37,177 bases of DNA from Candidatus Kaiserbacteria bacterium RIFCSPHIGHO2_01_FULL_58_22 (GTDB taxonomy: Bacteria > Patescibacteriota > Minisyncoccia > Phycocordibacterales > UBA2100), in contig MFLB01000039.1 in the NCBI GenBank assembly GCA_001781445.1, positions 1-37,177 of the forward strand. The letters run 5' to 3'. Of the stretch, positions 13,435 to 20,659 are shown piece after piece. Made by a program: the position numbers and the translations under genes. How positions within the stretch are numbered: position 1 is the stretch's first letter; every line of letters begins with the position of its first letter. The notes under the pieces were generated by a model that saw only the letters and a list, made by a program, of their open reading frames with translations, ran no database searches and was not told where the DNA came from.

Positions 13435-13511
13435 AGTTTACAGTTTACAGATGACAGTTACAGAGAACTCGATGTGCATTTGCTGTCAACTGTAAACTGT
13501 CAACTGTTGAC
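13435..13511. repeat. Intercistronic palindromic unit, CAGTTTA/CTGTCAA heptamer subfamily (atpD|atpC spacer)
   Basis: Arm AGTTTACAGTTTACAGATGACAGTTACAG (13435..13463) and arm CTGTCAACTGTAAACTGTCAACTGTTGAC (13483..13511) are imperfect reverse complements with 7-nt periodicity. The right arm encodes the last atpD codons (VNS-stop). The left arm abuts the atpC ATG. Confidence 0.8.
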
Positions 13512-14930
13512 TTCTTCAATGCCGCCTTTCATATAAAACGCCTGCTCGTTCTGCGCGTCGTGCTTGCCGTCCAATATCTCGCCAAAAGCCCGCACTGTTT
13601 CCGCAAGCGGAACGTATTTCCCTTTCGCCCCCGTGAACGTTTCGGCGACGGAGAACGGCTGGGAGAGGAATCGCTGTATCTTGCGCGCGCGATAGACCAA
13701 GCGCTTGTCTTCCTCCGAAAGCTCCTCGATGCCGAGAATGGCGATGATGTCCTGCAAATCTTTGTAGCGCTGGAGCACCCGGCGCGTTTCGTTGGCCGTT
13801 GCGTAGTGCTCCTCGCCCACGATCTCCGGCGTGAGCGCGGTCGAGCCGCTCTCGAGCGGATCGATCGCCGGATAGATGCCTAAGCTGGCGAGCGCGCGGG
13901 AGAGGACGATGGTCGAATCGAGGTGCGAGAAGGTGGTCGCCGGCGCCGGGTCGGTGAGGTCGTCGGCTGGCACGTAGATGGCCTGCACCGAGGTGATGGA
14001 GCCTTCGGTCGTCGAGGTGATGCGCTCCTGCAGGAGGCCCATTTCCTCGGCCAAGGTCGGCTGGTAGCCCACCGCCGAGGGCACGCGCCCGAGTAGCGAG
14101 GAGACTTCGGAGCCGGCCTGCACGAAGCGGAAGACGTTGTCCATGAAAAAGAGGACGTCTTTCCCCGCCCCGCGAGACGGCTTGCCGTCTTTTTCTGGGC
14201 CGCCTGATCCTATGTTGTCGCGGAACGCTTCGGCCATCGTCAATCCGGACAAGGCGACGCGGGCGCGCGCGCCCGGCACCTCGTTCATCTGTCCGAACAC
14301 GAGCGCGGTCTTCTCCAAAACGCCGGAGTCTTTCATTTCGTGATAGAGGTCGTTGCCCTCGCGCACGCGCTCGCCGACGCCCGCGAAGACGGAATAGCCG
14401 CCATGTTCCGAAGCGACGTTGTGAATGAGCTCTTGAATGAGCACGGTCTTTCCCACGCCCGCGCCGCCGAAAAGGCCCACTTTGCCGCCCTTGATGAAAG
14501 GCGCGAGAAGGTCTATCGCCTTGATGCCGGTCTCGAACAATTCCGCCTTGGTGCTCTGCCGGGTGAATTTCGGCGGGTCCTGATGTATCGGAAGCCGACG
14601 AGGTTGTCGGAGCGGACCTAATCCATCGATAGGTTCTCCAACGACATTGAACATCCTGCCGAGGGCGAGCTCCCCTACCGGCACCGAGATCGGCGCGCCC
14701 GTGTCGGCAACCTCCACCTCCCGTGCAAGGCCGGCAGTGTCTTGCATCGCAATGCATCGCGCACGGTTCAACCCCAAGTGTTGCACCACTTCGAGCGTCA
14801 GAGTCTCGCTTTTATGCGTAACGTGGAGCGCGTTCTTGATGGGCGGCAAGCCTTCATCAAATCGGACATCAACGACCGGTCCGATGATCTGCGTGACGAT
14901 GCCTTTGGACATAGGAGGGAATTGTATCAT
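13500..14930 (-). CDS. atpD: F1 ATP synthase subunit beta
   Basis: Has Walker A GGAGVGKT, the DNVFRF motif and an acidic ...[13 protein letters not shown] loop. Alternative start at Met7 (14912). The ATG at 14930 overlaps the upstream stop as ATGA. Confidence 0.95.
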
Positions 14931-15280
14931 CAGCCTTTGTGCTTGGAAACACTGTCGACAGACTCTTGAAAGATGCTAAGGATTGACTTTTCCAGTTCAG
15001 TTACCTTTGGGGGATGTGGAATGGTGTTGAACATGTTGACGACGGCATACATTGCATTATCATCCCAGTCTAAAAGTCCACTCCAATCCTGCGTCAGAGC
15101 CTTAGGTCTTAGTCGGTCTATGATCAGTTCCCGCAACGCCGTTTTGACGTCTTCATCCACGTCGCTCGCCGCTATGGCGTTCAAACACCGAAGACGCATC
15201 CGCGGCAACTCACGCCGCAATAGCTCGACCTCATCCGCCTTATCCGCCGATTTCGGCGCCGGGTCATCAGGATGGCGCAT
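14930..15280 (-). CDS. Hypothetical helical protein (116 aa), translationally overlapped with atpD
   Basis: Clean ORF on the operon strand with lower GC than the atp genes by eye. No family recognised. Confidence 0.6.
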
Positions 15281-15341
15281 GATGACCCGATTCTACCCGC
15301 ATTTGCTTCCCATTTCAAATGTGTGTATAGCCCGCCAGTAA

Positions 15342-15375
15342 ATACAGCTCTCGTACATATGTACGAGAACTGTAT
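15342..15375. promoter_or_regulatory. 34-bp palindrome ATACAGCTCTCGTACATATGTACGAGAACTGTAT (copy 1)
   Basis: Dyad symmetry centred on CATATG. Overlaps by 1 nt the TGA of the PaaX-like gene and lies upstream of the 116-aa ORF. 30/34 identical to the copy at 15954..15987. Confidence 0.75.
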
Positions 15376-15944
15376 CATGTCGTAATCTTGAAACGTCTTT
15401 GGAGATCCGCGGATCCGTCGACATGCGTTGCGGTTATGAACGACACATGGGGGAGAACTCCGTGGAAATTGGCGATCTCCCGCACCTCATCAGCGCATGG
15501 ATGCGGATGGATCCAAAGCGAACGCTGGTAAAAAACGAGCCCAAGGTTCTGAAGATGCCGTATGAATGGAATTCTCGCCTTAGAAAGTTCCTGAGGGATG
15601 TCGAAGGCGACAATATGCCATCTTCCATCCCATCGTTTCGGAACGGAGATTTTGAGTTCCCACAGCTTCCCTTCCTCCACAAGCCGCCTGCCTATGTCCG
15701 AAAGAGCATATCGCTCTCCGACACCGCGCACATAACCTCTGCGTCGCGCTTCATAGATCCTTCGAGTGGCCCAACGGCGATTTTTCTGCGTATCTCCCAT
15801 GGCGAGTTCTTTTAATACTCTCGCTAGCGCCCACGGGGGCGGAACGGCTCCGATCCCAACGACAAGAACCCCCACACCTATCATCTTGAGAATCCGTATC
15901 GTCTTCTCGCTCGGCCTCTGAAACTTGATCCCAGATATTCTCAT
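15375..15944 (-). CDS. PaaX-like regulator (N-terminal TM segment, winged-helix-like region, WDGRWHIVAFDIP ferredoxin-fold domain)
   Basis: 189 aa. Has a hydrophobic MIGVGVLVVGIGAVPPPWAL, a basic ...RRWATRRIYEARRRGYV... and WDGRWHIVAFDIPQELSKARIPFIRHLQNLGLVFYQRSLWIHPHP, resembling the PaaX C-terminal/Cas2-like pattern (recalled). Confidence 0.55.
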   Translation of the reverse strand: MRISGIKFQRPSEKTIRILKMIGVGVLVVGIGAVPPPWALARVLKELAMGDTQKNRRWATRRIYEARRRGYVRGVGERYALSDIGRRLVEEGKLWELKISVPKRWDGRWHIVAFDIPQELSKARIPFIRHLQNLGLVFYQRSLWIHPHPCADEVREIANFHGVLPHVSFITATHVDGSADLQRRFKITT

Positions 15945-15950
15945 ATACTC

Positions 15951-15956
15951 ATAATA
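15951..15956 (-). promoter_or_regulatory. Candidate -10 box TATTAT 6 nt upstream of the PaaX-like ATG
   Basis: The minus strand reads CTGTATTAT-gagtat-ATG. The box overlaps the end of the 34-bp palindrome. Confidence 0.4.
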
Positions 15957-19238: not shown

Positions 19239-19634
19239 CTATTGAGTTGCCCGATTATATAGTGAAAGTAGATATTTCTTAAAGCTTGCATCGACGAGTC
19301 GTTCGCGACCTTCGAGCCTCCAGCCGCCTATCAACGTGCTGTCGAGGCGTACTTCGGCTTCCAGCGCGCTCGAATCCATTGCGCGGAGCGCCTCCTTGGC
19401 GGCGCGTTTTGCGCCCGCCTCGTCTTTGGCATGAGCAACGGAGAGTACAACGGCGCGTTTGTCGCTCTCGCGCGCCGCAATGCGCGCGAACGCACGGCCG
19501 ATCTTGGACAGTAATCTCATGCGCCCGTGCCGTTCGAGGACCCTGCGAAGGTTCGCAACCGCGTCCTTGGGCGTTTTCCCTTTCTCGACTATTCGCCAAA
19601 GCGCCTGTGCGTACTGATGTTCCATGTATTTCAC
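19239..19634 (-). CDS. atpH: F1 ATP synthase subunit delta (OSCP), short form
   Basis: 131 aa. The C-terminal ...[26 protein letters not shown] matches the delta C-terminus. GTG start at 19634, or ATG at 19625. Position between atpF and atpA supports the call. Confidence 0.75.
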
Positions 19635-19665
19635 TACTGACTACAGACTACTGACTACTTACTGG
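19632..19665. repeat. Single-arm heptamer repeat (CTACTGA/CTACAGA) in the atpF|atpH junction
   Basis: CACTACTGACTACAGACTACTGACTACTTACTGG, with no complementary arm nearby. Covers the atpF codons TSK-TAG and the atpH start. Confidence 0.7.
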
Positions 19666-20101
19666 TTCTCAATATCTTCTCGGCCGCGAGCATCGCCGCC
19701 CGCGCTATCTCCCGCTCGCTTTCTTTCAATGCCTGACGCTTCGCTTCTTCGGCGCGCGCGGCGGCGTCTTTCAGCGCGCCTGCGGCCTGCGCTTCCGCGC
19801 TCTTCACGATCTCGTCGGCGCGCTCGCCAGCGCGCGCGCGCGCTTCCGCCACGAGCCCTTCGGCCTGCCGCGCCGCTTCCCCCACCATCCCCTCGCCTTC
19901 CCTCTTCGCTTCCTCGAGACGGCGCGCGGCGGCTTCCGCCTTGCGCACTCCCTCGGCGACCTTCTCCCTGCGCTCGTCGATGATCTTCAGGACTGGCTTG
20001 TAGAGGAAGTACGTCAGAATGGCCAAAAGCAGGCCGAAGTTGAGGGCCTGCACGAGGAGCAGTTTCCAATTGACGCCGAATGTCGCAAATAATTCCTGCA
20101 T
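19655..20101 (-). CDS. atpF: Fo ATP synthase subunit b
   Basis: 148 aa with an N-terminal TM (LLLVQALNFGLLLAILTYFLY), then a long charged Ala/Glu/Arg-rich helix. Confidence 0.88.
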   Translation of the reverse strand: MQELFATFGVNWKLLLVQALNFGLLLAILTYFLYKPVLKIIDERREKVAEGVRKAEAAARRLEEAKREGEGMVGEAARQAEGLVAEARARAGERADEIVKSAEAQAAGALKDAAARAEEAKRQALKESEREIARAAMLAAEKILRTSK

Positions 20102-20114
20102 AGCTTCTGTTTAT

Positions 20115-20239
20115 CAAATCACGTGATTTTGGATGCAGTGCGCGAAGAGCGAGGAGGCCGAGCGAGACGTATTGGACAATACGACGAGCGCTGGCCGACG
20201 AAGCTCGACAAAGCAATGCGCCAAAATCACGTGTATTTG
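20115..20239. repeat. 125-bp element with CACGTG-containing terminal inverted repeats flanking a GC-rich core (atpE|atpF spacer)
   Basis: CAAATCACGTGATTTTGG (20115..20132) versus the reverse complement of CCAAAATCACGTGTATTTG (20221..20239) gives 13 perfect bp plus flanks. The right repeat encodes the atpE codons KYT-TGA. Confidence 0.75.
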
Positions 20240-20454
20240 AGGATGAAGCCGATAACGAGCGCAAATATCGCAAGCGCCTCGCTAAACGCGATACCGACGA
20301 ACATCAGGGGCTGAATTTGCCCCGAAGCCTCCGGATTGCGCCCGATCGCCTCGAGCGCTTTCGAGGCGACGATGCCCACCCCGATGCCGGGGCCGATCAT
20401 GCCTAAGCCGACCGCCAAGGCCATGCCGATTATCTTTGCCGCTTCTGCATCCAT
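20227..20454 (-). CDS. atpE: Fo ATP synthase subunit c
   Basis: 75 aa, two-helix hairpin, [14 protein letters not shown] glycine motif, conserved carboxylate in ...[13 protein letters not shown]. Confidence 0.93.
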
Positions 20455-20458
20455 ATGA

Positions 20459-20659
20459 ACTAGTTAGTAGTTAGTAGTGCGTAGTTAGTAGCGACTACAA
20501 TGTTAATAATTGATAACAGCTATGGCCGCATTCTAGCACGCGTTTTCGGACAATCCGGGATTGACCTGCTTCTGTTTGCGTTATATGGTTGCGGCCGCCA
20601 AACGTGCCAGCATTAGCTCATTACAGACTACCGACTACTTTCTACTTTCTACTTACTAC
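20459..20659. repeat. Expanded palindromic unit (TAGTAGT arm 20459..20499, CTACTTT arm 20623..20659) with about 120-bp central insert (atpB|atpE spacer)
   Basis: Same arm sequences as the 80-bp units, including GACTACTTTCTACTTTCTAC. The centre carries a minus-strand extended -10-like TGCTAGAAT (20530..20538 on the plus strand). Confidence 0.75.

What the first reader, a model, noticed from the sequence alone, without database searches (positions are those of the whole stretch)
13435..20659. Family of ~80-bp heptamer-periodic palindromic units filling the intercistronic spacers of the ATP synthase operon
Four spacers each consist of two AT-rich arms that are imperfect reverse complements: atpD|atpC (13435-13511), atpG|rdgB (16594-16675), atpA|atpG (17597-17679) and atpB|atpE (20459-20659). 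The arms are built from 7-nt periods, TAGTAGT/TAGTTAG versus CTACTAA/CTACTTT, or CAGTTTA versus CTGTCAA in the atpD|atpC copy. Three units are 77-83 bp. The 12-mer ACTACTTTCTAC recurs at 16657, 17647, 20634 and 31163, so these are dispersed copies of one element rather than chance low complexity. On the minus-strand mRNA the order is always the same: stop codon, TAG-rich arm with stops in all three frames, a short loop often containing TGCAT, then a G-poor CUACUAA arm ending 0-4 nt before the next start codon. No Shine-Dalgarno sequence is visible. The upstream arm even supplies the last codons of the upstream gene: atpA ...IVNS-TAG, atpD ...EVNS-TGA, atpF ...TSK-TAG. Possible roles include hairpins that make downstream initiation depend on ribosomes terminating upstream, or RNase/stability elements tuning subunit stoichiometry. 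They could also be MITE-like insertions analogous to ERIC, RUP or Correia elements. I do not recognise this family.
Basis: partly seen in the sequence, partly recalled or inferred. Interest (0 to 1): 0.75.

Follow-up and report, generated by a model that had tools for sequence, protein, structure and literature searches.

The report
Inverted heptamer-repeat hairpins between operon genes
The gaps between ATP synthase genes of this Kaiserbacteria (CPR) genome are filled by pairs of 7-base tandem repeats that can fold into weak hairpins; this is a new example of a repeat class already described in cyanobacteria, Xanthomonas and Beggiatoaceae, whose function is still unknown.

Summary
The window has 13 period-7 tandem arrays (about 0.2 expected, none at periods 6 or 8-11). 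All lie in intergenic spacers. Five spacers hold inverted pairs and three hold solo arrays.

The family is not unrecognised. It matches the intergenic heptanucleotide repeats known as STRR in cyanobacteria. It also matches the GGGAATC inverted pairs next to stop codons in Xanthomonas and the TAACTGA repeats before RBS-less start codons in Beggiatoaceae.

The "constant order" is a handedness of the palindrome, not an orientation to transcription. Pairs with the GTAG arm 5' outnumber the reverse 25 to 2 across taxa.

Evidence for a conserved regulatory RNA is weak:
- Folding z-scores are only -2.5 to -4.3.
- The antisense strand folds as well or better.
- Ten assemblies of the species have identical spacers.
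- Relatives at 85-86% AtpG identity lack the atpA|atpG and atpG-downstream hairpins. Only the CTAC array in the atpE leader is kept.

The genome has no Shine-Dalgarno sites and looks leaderless. Other relatives carry unrelated spacer-spanning hairpins at the same junctions.

Best reading: slippage-born repeat arrays persist where a stop-to-start hairpin is compatible with translational coupling. This is a new member of a known kind, of moderate interest.

The parts
17597..17679 (-). atpA|atpG hairpin. The 5' arm (mRNA sense) is UAGUUAGUAGAAAGUAGAAAGUAGUC and overlaps the last 4 codons and stop of atpA. The loop is UUGAUGCAUUUU. The 3' arm is a (CUACURA)n array ending 3-4 nt before the atpG AUG.
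   Evidence: (MFE -23.2 kcal/mol, z -2.5).
16594..16675 (-). atpG|rdgB hairpin. A GTAG array follows the atpG UGA, and a CTAC array runs up to the rdgB AUG. Pairing extends from the stop codon to position -1 of the start.
   Evidence: (MFE -29.4 kcal/mol, z -4.1).
13435..13511 (-). atpD|atpC hairpin of a second flavour: CAGUUGA/CAGUUUA in the 5' arm and CUGUAAA/CUGUCAU in the 3' arm. The loop contains AAAUGCA. The stop UGA lies in the stem base and the last pair is adjacent to the atpC AUG.
   Evidence: (MFE -26.4 kcal/mol, z -2.9). One search shows the compensatory changes GTAG->ACAG with CTAC->CTGT.
20616..20660 (-). GTAG array (5 phased GTAG) directly after the atpB stop. It is the distal partner of the atpE-leader array.
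   Evidence: arms alone fold at -31.1 kcal/mol.
20458..20491 (-). CTAC array in the atpE leader, ending 9 nt before the AUG. It is the only array also present at the orthologous site in the closest other species (L004).
20492..20615 (-). Region of about 131 nt between the two atpB|atpE arms. It carries an extended -10-like TGCTAGAAT (20530-20538) conserved in relatives L001 and L003. Transcripts starting there would carry the CTAC array unpaired.
   Evidence: The promoter function is inferred.
31099..31179 (-). Fifth full hairpin, in the mraZ|rsmH spacer. It has a GTAG array, an AAAUGCAAAA loop and a perfect (CUACUAA)4.4 array.
   Evidence: MFE -25.6 kcal/mol, z -4.3.
19633..19663 (-). Solo GTAG-type array filling the atpF|atpH spacer. 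It supplies the last codons and stop of atpF and has no partner arm.
   Evidence: no inverted repeat; z -1.0.
22917..22949 (-). Solo CAGTTGA-type array directly after the ahcY stop, followed by the AAATGCAAAAG motif.
29975..30019 (-). Perfect (UUCCAAC)6.4 G-free array ending about 10 nt upstream of the ftsL-like ORF. It is unstructured.
   Evidence: 100% matches; z +0.5.

Best explanation
The elements are tandem heptanucleotide repeat arrays of the STRR / 'heptameric SSR' kind. Here they mostly occur as inverted pairs.

**Origin (inferred).** Arrays arise and are homogenised in place by replication slippage. The two arms are kept complementary by arm-to-arm templated correction or by selection. 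Related seeds such as TAAATAGTTAGTAGAAAGTAG have spread to several junctions of this genome.

**Persistence (inferred).** The genome has no Shine-Dalgarno sites, and the first genes of transcription units look leaderless. Internal cistrons would then depend on ribosomes that terminate close to the next start codon. An insertion of about 80 nt between stop and start is tolerable if it folds into a weak, easily melted hairpin. The base of that hairpin puts the stop codon and the next AUG side by side.

**What the arms contribute.** The 5' arm supplies stop codons in all frames. The G-poor CUA-rich 3' arm is an unstructured leader when unpaired, as in the atpE transcript from its own promoter.

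**Shown:** repeat class, periodicity, hairpin geometry, lack of SD, lack of orthologous conservation.

**Inferred:** slippage origin, coupling and bridging role, leader role.
For: **Repeat class and periodicity**
- Period 7 is the only over-represented period: 13 arrays against 0.2 expected in the window, and 20 against 0-1 for periods 6 and 8-12 in 122 kb of Kaiserbacteria DNA.
- Three flavours occur in one genome, together with perfect arrays such as (TTCCAAC)6.4 and (GTTAGTA)4.4. This argues for in-situ expansion.
- Relatives carry other flavours at other junctions.
- The same architecture is found in many phyla.

**Literature**
- Heptamers are the over-represented SSR class, and polymerase slippage has been proposed as the cause.
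- Xanthomonas has about 70 'convergent' inverted pairs close to or overlapping stop codons (PMC4692102).
- TAACTGA arrays lie mostly 1 nt upstream of RBS-less start codons, and some overlap upstream ORF ends (PMC4679880).

**Geometry**
- In three of the four compact hairpins the stem base includes the upstream stop. All four end 0-3 nt before the AUG.

**Translation context**
- 1 of 23 genes has an SD core. 10 of 23 have TANNNT starting at -12 to -15, against 4.6% background.

**Other hairpins at the same junctions**
- Unrelated spacer-spanning hairpins occupy atpE|atpF in the window, L001, L002 and L010. They also occupy atpA|atpG in L002 and L010. L003 has different heptamer hairpins at both junctions.

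**Covariation and conservation**
- Arms co-vary between flavours: 5 compensatory pairs.
- The atpE-leader array is conserved in L004.

**Stop adjacency across taxa**
- GTAG-sense arrays abut stop codons: median 8 nt, and 47% within 5 nt.
Against: - There is no expression, ribosome or RNA-end data, so coupling is untested.
- Hairpins are weak, built as 5 bp plus 2-nt A.A mismatches. Antisense RNA is as stable or more stable in 4 of 4 compact hairpins, so there is no sense-strand G.U signature.
- The closest species manage with 1-nt spacers or inserted ORFs at the same junctions. The hairpins are therefore not required.
- The solo GTAG array before atpH and the solo arrays after ahcY and ftsA need no partner.
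- L003's TTTTCAA/TTGAAAA hairpins have the opposite purine/pyrimidine handedness.
- Ten assemblies of the species show no copy-number variation. Slippage is therefore not frequent on that timescale.
- Slippage alone does not explain why the same unit family appears at several junctions, or the shared AAATGCA loop.
Confidence: 0.5

Rival explanations
1. These are dedicated regulatory RNA hairpins selected to set ATP synthase subunit ratios. They would act as decay barriers or RNase sites that stabilise the upstream segment, or as lids over the downstream start that upstream translation opens. The second mechanism resembles atpHA coupling in E. coli (own knowledge).
For: - Hairpins of unrelated sequence recur at atpE|atpF and atpA|atpG in several Kaiserbacteria, with z from -2.9 to -5.4.
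- The stems bracket the stop and start codons.
- Arms co-vary between flavours.
- Spacers are invariant across 10 assemblies.
Against: - The hairpins are absent at orthologous junctions of the closest species.
- They also occur at mraZ|rsmH and after atpG and atpB, which does not follow subunit stoichiometry.
- The sense strand is not the better folder.
- The z-score of the atpA|atpG copy is only -2.5.
- The same arrays occur as solo, unpaired copies.
Confidence: 0.2
2. The arrays are multivalent binding sites for a single-strand nucleic-acid-binding protein. Candidates are ribosomal protein S1, a cold-shock protein, or a HutP-like protein that reads UAG-N4-UAG-N4-UAG. That protein would control translation or RNA fate, and the hairpin would be secondary.
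For: - The phased invariant positions are AG in one arm and CT in the other, every 7 nt, while the other positions vary.
- UAG-N4-UAG spacing matches the HutP site (own knowledge).
- S1, Csp and CsrA were proposed as binders of TAACTGA repeats (PMC4679880).
- An unidentified binding partner was proposed for Nostoc heptamers (bioRxiv 10.1101/2022.06.06.494920).
- Arrays sit within 0-12 nt of start codons in a genome without SD.
Against: - No candidate protein was identified.
- At least three unrelated unit sequences occur in one genome, and more in relatives. One specific reader is therefore unlikely.
- In other genomes solo arrays show no consistent orientation to neighbouring starts.
Confidence: 0.12
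3. These are miniature mobile elements of the MITE or REP/BIME type. They would be copied between junctions by a transposase, for example the Y1 (IS200/RAYT-like) enzyme encoded at 33487-34173. REPs recognised by RAYTs carry a GTAG head (own knowledge).
For: - Sequences longer than a unit are shared between junctions. These include the 12-mer at four sites and a 21-mer shared by the atpA end and an ftsA end in L221.
- The loop motif AAATGCA is shared across flavours.
- A Y1_Tnp gene flanked by inverted hairpins lies in the window, and L264 carries a second Y1_Tnp gene about 4.6 kb downstream of its copy of that gene.
Against: - Copies differ in unit number, unit sequence, loop and length.
- No clear terminal repeats beyond the arrays and no target duplications were seen.
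- Perfect arrays indicate local expansion.
- The hairpins flanking the Y1 gene are a different, GC-rich sequence.
- No Y1 homologue was found in 1.6 Mb around arrays in other genomes.
Confidence: 0.08
4. The arrays act at the DNA level, through cruciform or slipped structures, nucleoid organisation, promoter modulation, or as recombination hot spots. Any RNA hairpin would be incidental.
For: - Both strands fold about equally.
- The handedness bias of 25 to 2 is strand-symmetric.
- The atpB|atpE arms flank a promoter-like region.
- In Nostoc, heptamers affect promoter activity (bioRxiv 10.1101/2022.06.06.494920).
Against: - The exact abutment to stop and start codons, and the supply of stop codons, point to constraints read in the transcript or in translation.
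- There is no length polymorphism among strains.
Confidence: 0.08

Closest known systems
GGGAATC / GGGGA(C/T)T heptameric intergenic repeats of Xanthomonas and Nostoc (Rehm et al. 2015, PMC4692102)
   Same: - 7-nt units, usually about 4 copies, in intergenic DNA.
- About 70 inverted pairs per genome, always in 'convergent' orientation, able to form stem-loops.
- Strong bias to lie next to or overlapping the stop codon.
- Length and sequence vary between close species.
- Function unknown.
   Different: - The units there are G-rich and form quadruplexes. Here they are GTAG/CTAC, CAGTTGA and TTCCAAC, with no G-tracts.
- Here the pairs fill whole intercistronic spacers and also abut the next start codon.
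- The host is a CPR bacterium without SD sites.
TAACTGA direct repeats of marine Beggiatoaceae, cyanobacteria and Bacteroidetes (MacGregor 2015, PMC4679880)
   Same: - Heptamer arrays in forward orientation, mostly within a few nt of a start codon.
- Canonical RBS rare.
- Some arrays overlap the end of the upstream ORF.
- Stops present in the forward reading frames.
- Present in essential operons.
- Translational role proposed but untested.
- The atpD|atpC 3' arm unit (CTGTAAA) is close to a rotation of TAACTGA.
   Different: - The unit sequence differs.
- In Beggiatoaceae only one inverted set was found among 170. Here most copies are inverted pairs.
STRR (short tandemly repeated repetitive) heptanucleotides of heterocystous cyanobacteria (Mazel et al. 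1990, cited in PMC4692102; own knowledge)
   Same: Several different heptamer units per genome, tandemly amplified, intergenic and dispersed.
   Different: - The phylum and the units differ.
- Stop-to-start hairpin geometry has not been described for STRR.
E. coli atpHA translational coupling by mRNA secondary structure, and termination-reinitiation at adjacent stop/start codons (own knowledge)
   Same: Works-like comparison only. An intercistronic structure masks the downstream start, and translation of the upstream cistron could open it.
   Different: - There is no sequence relation.
- E. coli uses SD sites.
- Nothing was tested here.
REP/BIME elements with RAYT transposases; MITEs such as ERIC, RUP and Correia
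   Same: Dispersed intergenic imperfect palindromes inside operons. REPs carry a GTAG head, and a Y1 transposase gene is present in the window.
   Different: - These arms are tandem arrays of variable copy number.
- There is no fixed consensus length and no target duplication.
- The Y1 gene is flanked by a different hairpin.

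Membership tests
Intergenic heptanucleotide tandem repeats (STRR / heptameric SSR class) | Repeat unit of exactly 7 nt in tandem, at least 3 copies | tested here: met
   TRF reports period 7 for all arms at 2.7-6.4 copies. The period census gives 13 arrays at period 7 and 0 at periods 6 and 8-11.
Intergenic heptanucleotide tandem repeats (STRR / heptameric SSR class) | Intergenic location, many loci per genome, several unit types | tested here: met
   All 13 arrays lie in spacers, with at most about one third overlapping a gene end. 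Three unit families occur in 37 kb. One further locus was found in a Kaiserbacteria-like metagenome contig from a sample that also holds the window organism. The whole-genome count was not obtainable.
Intergenic heptanucleotide tandem repeats (STRR / heptameric SSR class) | Rapid turnover: copy number and presence differ between related species | tested here: met
   The atpA|atpG and atpG-downstream hairpins are absent in relatives at 85-86% AtpG identity. Other flavours occur in relatives at 78-81%. The atpE leader array is shared with L004 but with different units. No variation was seen within the species.
Xanthomonas-type inverted heptamer pairs (PMC4692102) | Two arrays on opposite strands in one fixed ('convergent') arrangement, close to or overlapping a stop codon | tested here: met
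   All 5 window pairs have the G-containing arm 5'. Across other genomes the count is 25 to 2. Arrays overlap the atpA, atpD and atpF stops. Across taxa the median distance from the stop is 8 nt.
Xanthomonas-type inverted heptamer pairs (PMC4692102) | G-tract units able to form G-quadruplexes | tested here: not met
   The units GTAGNNN, CAGTTGA and TTCCAAC contain no G3 tracts.
TAACTGA repeats (PMC4679880) | Unit TAACTGA | tested here: not met
   The units are CTACTAA/CTACTGA and CTGTAAA. They are related by 1-2 changes per unit but are not TAACTGA.
TAACTGA repeats (PMC4679880) | Forward array within a few nt upstream of a start codon lacking an RBS | tested here: met
   The 3' arms or their paired extensions end 0-12 nt before atpC, rdgB, atpG, atpE and rsmH. 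No SD core is present.
MITE (ERIC, RUP, Correia-like) | Discrete copies of near-constant length with terminal inverted repeats and target-site duplications | tested here: not met
   Lengths are 77-83 nt but with different unit numbers and loops, and one pair is split by 131 nt. Solo arms exist, and no consistent flanking direct repeat was seen on inspection.
REP/BIME with RAYT | Short (20-40 nt) imperfect palindrome with a conserved GTAG/GTGG head, the same sequence flanking the RAYT gene | tested here: not met
   The Y1_Tnp gene is flanked by AGGCGACGCCTCGTRG hairpins. These are unrelated to the heptamer arrays.
Known RNA families (Rfam 15) | Match to a curated covariance model | tested here: not met
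   The gathering-threshold scan found only 3 tRNAs. The E-value scan of 13300-20800 found only chance-level hits far below gathering scores.
Intrinsic terminators | GC-rich stem followed by a T-run | tested here: not met
   No terminator-like site falls in any of the spacers. The stems are AT-rich and are followed by the start codon.

The most novel reading that the evidence does not exclude
In Kaiserbacteria there is no Shine-Dalgarno pairing and first cistrons look leaderless. In that setting, inverted heptamer arrays could be a dedicated intercistronic 'bridge'. The weak periodic hairpin would hold the upstream stop and the downstream AUG together, so that a terminating 70S ribosome is handed across 70-90 nt in a bacterial shunt. 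The all-frame stops of the 5' arm and the G-poor CUA-repeat 3' arm would serve as stop module and landing pad. The cross-phylum 25-to-2 handedness of GTAG/CTAC pairs and their abutment to stop codons would then reflect a widespread, unrecognised translation-linked function of heptamer repeats.
Probability: 0.12. Interest if true: 0.8.

Novelty: new member of a known kind. Interest (0 to 1): 0.42.

Why it matters
Heptamer repeats have been known as the over-represented repeat class in bacterial intergenic DNA since 1990-2007. They still have no accepted function.

This case adds a CPR lineage and places the arrays in an essential, well-understood operon. It sets them in a genome that appears to lack Shine-Dalgarno sites. 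It also yields two simple cross-phylum regularities:
- Paired arrays have a fixed handedness.
- GTAG-sense arrays abut or supply stop codons.

Together these make a translation-linked role testable. The ATP synthase junctions of Kaiserbacteria, or the same junctions moved into a model organism, would be a compact reporter system. If the arrays prove neutral, the case still shows how far operon junctions tolerate insertions, provided stop and start stay structurally adjacent.

Tried and rejected
1. **Strain-level covariation or copy-number test.** Ten assemblies of the same species (L131-L141) have identical spacers. All differences lie in coding sequence, clustered in one gene per contig. The test is uninformative.
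2. **Ortholog covariation.** The closest other species lack the atpA|atpG and atpG-downstream hairpins, so there is nothing to align.
3. **Sense versus antisense folding as a test for RNA-level selection.** No sense advantage was found.
4. **Collection scans to count copies in this genome.** Both the genome scan (CTACN3 x4) and the metagenome scan (ACTACTAACTACTAACTA) stopped at 120 rows, filled by many unrelated taxa. They gave distribution data, not a copy number for this genome. No hit in the listed part of the genome scan came from Kaiserbacteria.
5. **Orientation of solo arrays to neighbouring genes in 240 loci.** With crude ORF calls there was no clear bias to starts, only an excess of convergent over divergent gaps.
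6. **Rfam searches.** Nothing was found.
7. **Link to the Y1 transposase.** The flanking hairpins are different, and no Y1 homologues lie near arrays elsewhere.
8. **Terminator reading.** There are no T-runs.
9. **Mini-ORFs starting at the loop AUG.** AAATGCA provides the start. Only the atpD|atpC one ends next to the downstream start, so the idea was kept as a note only.
10. **Literature on leaderless or SD-less translation in Patescibacteria.** No paper was found in the library.
11. **Covariance model.** None was built. Paralogues are few, and the repeat register makes alignments ambiguous.

Full report
**Where this is.** The window comes from a Candidatus Kaiserbacteria genome (Parcubacteria, CPR). 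AtpG is 73-82% identical to proteins named Kaiserbacteria, and the same protein occurs on at least 24 contigs from metagenomes and MAG assemblies. The ATP synthase genes lie on the minus strand in this order:
- atpB, atpE, atpF, atpH, atpA, atpG, rdgB
- an inserted block holding a PaaX-like ORF and a 116-aa ORF
- atpD, atpC

**Observation.** The four stated spacers are inverted repeats with arms of 23-33 nt and 73-91% complementarity.
- TRF assigns period 7 to every arm.
- Using one criterion for all periods, the window has 13 period-7 arrays. Composition-preserving shuffles give 0.2, and periods 6 and 8-11 give none.
- All arrays lie in spacers. At most the outer third overlaps the last codons of a gene.
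- The 12-mer recurs exactly where stated.
- The site at 31163 belongs to a fifth complete hairpin in the mraZ|rsmH spacer.
- There are also three solo arrays:
  - a GTAG array filling atpF|atpH
  - a CAGTTGA array after the ahcY stop
  - a perfect (TTCCAAC)6.4 array before the ftsL-like ORF
- The array-encoded tails (IVNS, VNS, TSK) replace the variable C-terminal residues seen in relatives. They are not extensions.
- In the GTAG-type spacers, stops appear in all three sense frames within 14-26 nt of the upstream stop.

**A correction of logic.** An inverted repeat reads the same on both strands. 'TAG-rich arm first, CUAC arm second' is therefore a handedness of the palindrome. It is not evidence that the element is oriented to the mRNA. 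The handedness itself is real and general. In loci from two collection scans, pairs within 150 nt are 25 with the GTAG arm 5' against 2 with the reverse order.

**Hairpin quality.**
- Sense-strand folds are -23 to -29 kcal/mol, with z-scores of -2.5, -2.9, -4.1 and -4.3 against dinucleotide shuffles.
- The stems are 4-6 bp helices separated by 2-nt mismatches, one per heptamer.
- The antisense RNA is more stable in three of the four compact hairpins and equal in the fourth. There is no G.U signature of selection on the sense transcript.
- Among the five window copies, the consensus has 21 pairs, of which 5 are compensatory. All five come from the atpD|atpC copy, where GTAG became ACAG and CTAC became CTGT.
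- The geometry is consistent. In three of the four compact hairpins the stem base contains the upstream stop. In all four the last pair lies 0-3 nt before the next AUG.

**Relatives.**
- Ten assemblies of the same species carry identical spacers.
- The closest other species (AtpG 85-86% identical) have a 120-aa ORF with 1-nt spacers between atpA and atpG. After atpG they have 3-47 nt of unrelated sequence.
- One array is conserved. L004 has ACTACGT-ACTACGA-TCTACGT-ACTACTA before the atpE start, matching the window's atpE leader array.
- More distant relatives show other heptamer flavours at other junctions:
  - TTTTCAA/TTGAAAA hairpins at atpA|atpG and atpE|atpF in L003 (z -5.4 and -5.0)
  - (GCTAGAA)n before atpF in L004
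  - (CTAAAAC)n and (TCTACGN)n in L010
- L001 and L002, the latter from a closed genome, have no period-7 arrays in 17 kb each.
- Unrelated spacer-spanning hairpins occupy atpE|atpF in the window, L001, L002 and L010. They also occupy atpA|atpG in L002 and L010.
- So a stop-to-start hairpin at these junctions recurs, but its sequence, and whether it is built from heptamers, does not.

**Distribution beyond Kaiserbacteria.** A scan of 185,579 species genomes for four phased CTAC stopped at 120 rows. A metagenome scan for ACTACTAACTACTAACTA did the same.
- Hits come from many lineages, including Acidobacteriota, Verrucomicrobiota, Gemmatimonadota, Bacteroidota, Cyanobacteria, Chloroflexota, Planctomycetota, Streptomyces and Saccharibacteria.
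- Nearly all hits are extended arrays, and many have an inverted partner.
- GTAG-sense arrays that follow a gene lie a median of 8 nt from its stop, and 47% lie within 5 nt. CTAC-sense arrays lie a median of 73 nt away (crude ORF calls, and ORFs running through CTAC arrays were excluded).
- Solo arrays show no clear orientation to neighbouring starts. Convergent gaps outnumber divergent ones, 24 to 4.

**What is known.**
- Rehm et al. (PMC4692102) report the following:
  - Heptamers are the over-represented SSR class in many bacteria, citing Mrazek 2007, who proposed a link to polymerase slippage.
  - Xanthomonas has about 70 inverted pairs of GGGAATC arrays, always in one arrangement.
  - There is a strong bias to sit next to or overlap the stop codon.
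  - Copy numbers differ between close species.
- MacGregor (PMC4679880) describes TAACTGA arrays:
  - They lie mostly 1 nt upstream of start codons that lack an RBS.
  - Some overlap upstream ORF ends.
  - They are present in ribosomal protein operons.
  - A translational role is proposed, with S1, Csp or CsrA as candidate readers.
- A preprint on Nostoc reports reporter effects of heptamer arrays near start codons (10.1101/2022.06.06.494920).
- The cyanobacterial STRR repeats are the oldest example.
- The window elements meet the defining features of this class. They do not meet those of MITEs, REPs, terminators or any Rfam family.

**Context that bears on mechanism.**
- Only 1 of 23 genes has an SD core at -18 to -4, against a 14% background.
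- 10 of 23 genes have a TANNNT hexamer starting at -12 to -15, against a 4.6% background. This is the spacing expected for transcripts that begin at the start codon.
- Apart from atpC, where the hexamer is part of the array itself, genes preceded by arrays lack this box.
- The 131 nt between the atpB|atpE arms contain TGCTAGAAT, conserved in L001 and L003. atpE therefore probably has its own promoter and would carry the CTAC array as an unpaired, G-poor leader.

**Explanation I commit to.** These are heptanucleotide repeat arrays that arise and are homogenised locally. They persist at operon junctions because an inverted pair folds into a weak hairpin that keeps stop and start adjacent. That is compatible with termination-reinitiation in a genome without SD sites. 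The 3' CUA-rich array may also serve as an unstructured leader. The class assignment is well supported. The origin and the coupling role are inference. Rivals, in decreasing order of confidence:
1. Dedicated stability or processing hairpins.
2. Protein-binding arrays.
3. Mobile elements, and DNA-level roles (equal confidence).

**Verdict.** The finding is real and well above chance, but it is a new member of a described and functionally unexplained repeat class. It is neither a new family nor a conserved regulatory element of the operon.

Noticed in passing
window, upstream regions of 23 genes (e.g. atpB 21402-21420, atpD 14913-14930, guaA 31835-31852): The genome appears to lack Shine-Dalgarno sites: 1 of 23 genes has an SD core against a 14% background. 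10 of 23 genes have a -10-like TANNNT starting at -12 to -15, against 4.6% background. This suggests leaderless mRNAs are the norm for first cistrons.
   Followed up: partly
window 20120-20233 (atpE|atpF spacer); L001 5265-5386, L002 5400-5533, L010 3120-3238: A stem-loop of about 110 nt spans the atpE|atpF spacer. In the window its base is the 13-bp perfect pairing CACGTGATTTTGG/CCAAAATCACGTG, which includes the atpE stop. Relatives have equally long closed hairpins with different base stems, at z -2.9 to -3.6. This may be a conserved structured element after the c-subunit gene.
   Followed up: partly
window 33487-34173, with hairpins at 33444-33464 and 34180-34195; third copy at 30364-30384 inside rsmH: A Y1 (IS200-like) transposase gene is flanked by inverted GC-rich hairpins AGGCGACGCCTCGTRG. 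This is the arrangement typical of REP-associated tyrosine transposases. In locus L264, a second Y1_Tnp gene lies about 4.6 kb downstream of its copy of this gene.
   Followed up: partly
window 15342-15375 and 15954-15987, flanking ORF 15375-15944: Two 34-bp near-perfect palindromes (ATACAGnnCTnGTACATATGTACnAGnnCTGTAT) bracket a PaaX_M (Cas2-like domain) ORF. That ORF and a 116-aa ORF with no Pfam match are inserted in the ATP operon between rdgB and atpD. Local GC is about 0.51, lower than the flanks.
   Followed up: partly
window 13473-13481, 22905-22913, 31134-31142, 17638-17646; also 6003-6011: The motif AAATGCA(A/C)A recurs in hairpin loops of different arm flavours: 5 hits against 0.4 expected. 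Its AUG opens mini-ORFs of 7-13 codons in the hairpin loops. The atpD|atpC one ends at a TAA 3 nt before the atpC start. At 6003 the same motif forms the stem of a small hairpin.
   Followed up: partly
ATP operons of relatives: L004 2821-3183, L005 836-1198, L010 6762-7387, L001 1368-4955: Kaiserbacteria ATP synthase operons are mosaics. Different species carry small unknown ORFs, an NTP_transf_2/HepT toxin-antitoxin pair, or three metabolic or transport genes inserted between atp genes, often with 1-nt spacers.
   Followed up: no
window 2356-5823: The leucyl-tRNA synthetase is 1155 aa. It has precomputed Pfam hits to a serine hydrolase/alpha-beta hydrolase and to NUDIX inside the synthetase.
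   Followed up: no
window 22366-22758 and 35027-36076: A HicA-toxin-like ORF lies downstream of ahcY. A DDE_3 (IS630-like) transposase ORF lies near the tRNA genes.
   Followed up: no
L221 6777-6830 (metagenome contig Ga0209542_10023233): A solo GTAG array abuts the ftsA stop codon in a Kaiserbacteria-like contig, from a sample that also holds the window organism. It shares the 21-mer TAAATAGTTAGTAGAAAGTAG with the atpA end in the window. The next gene is convergent and there is no partner arm.
   Followed up: partly
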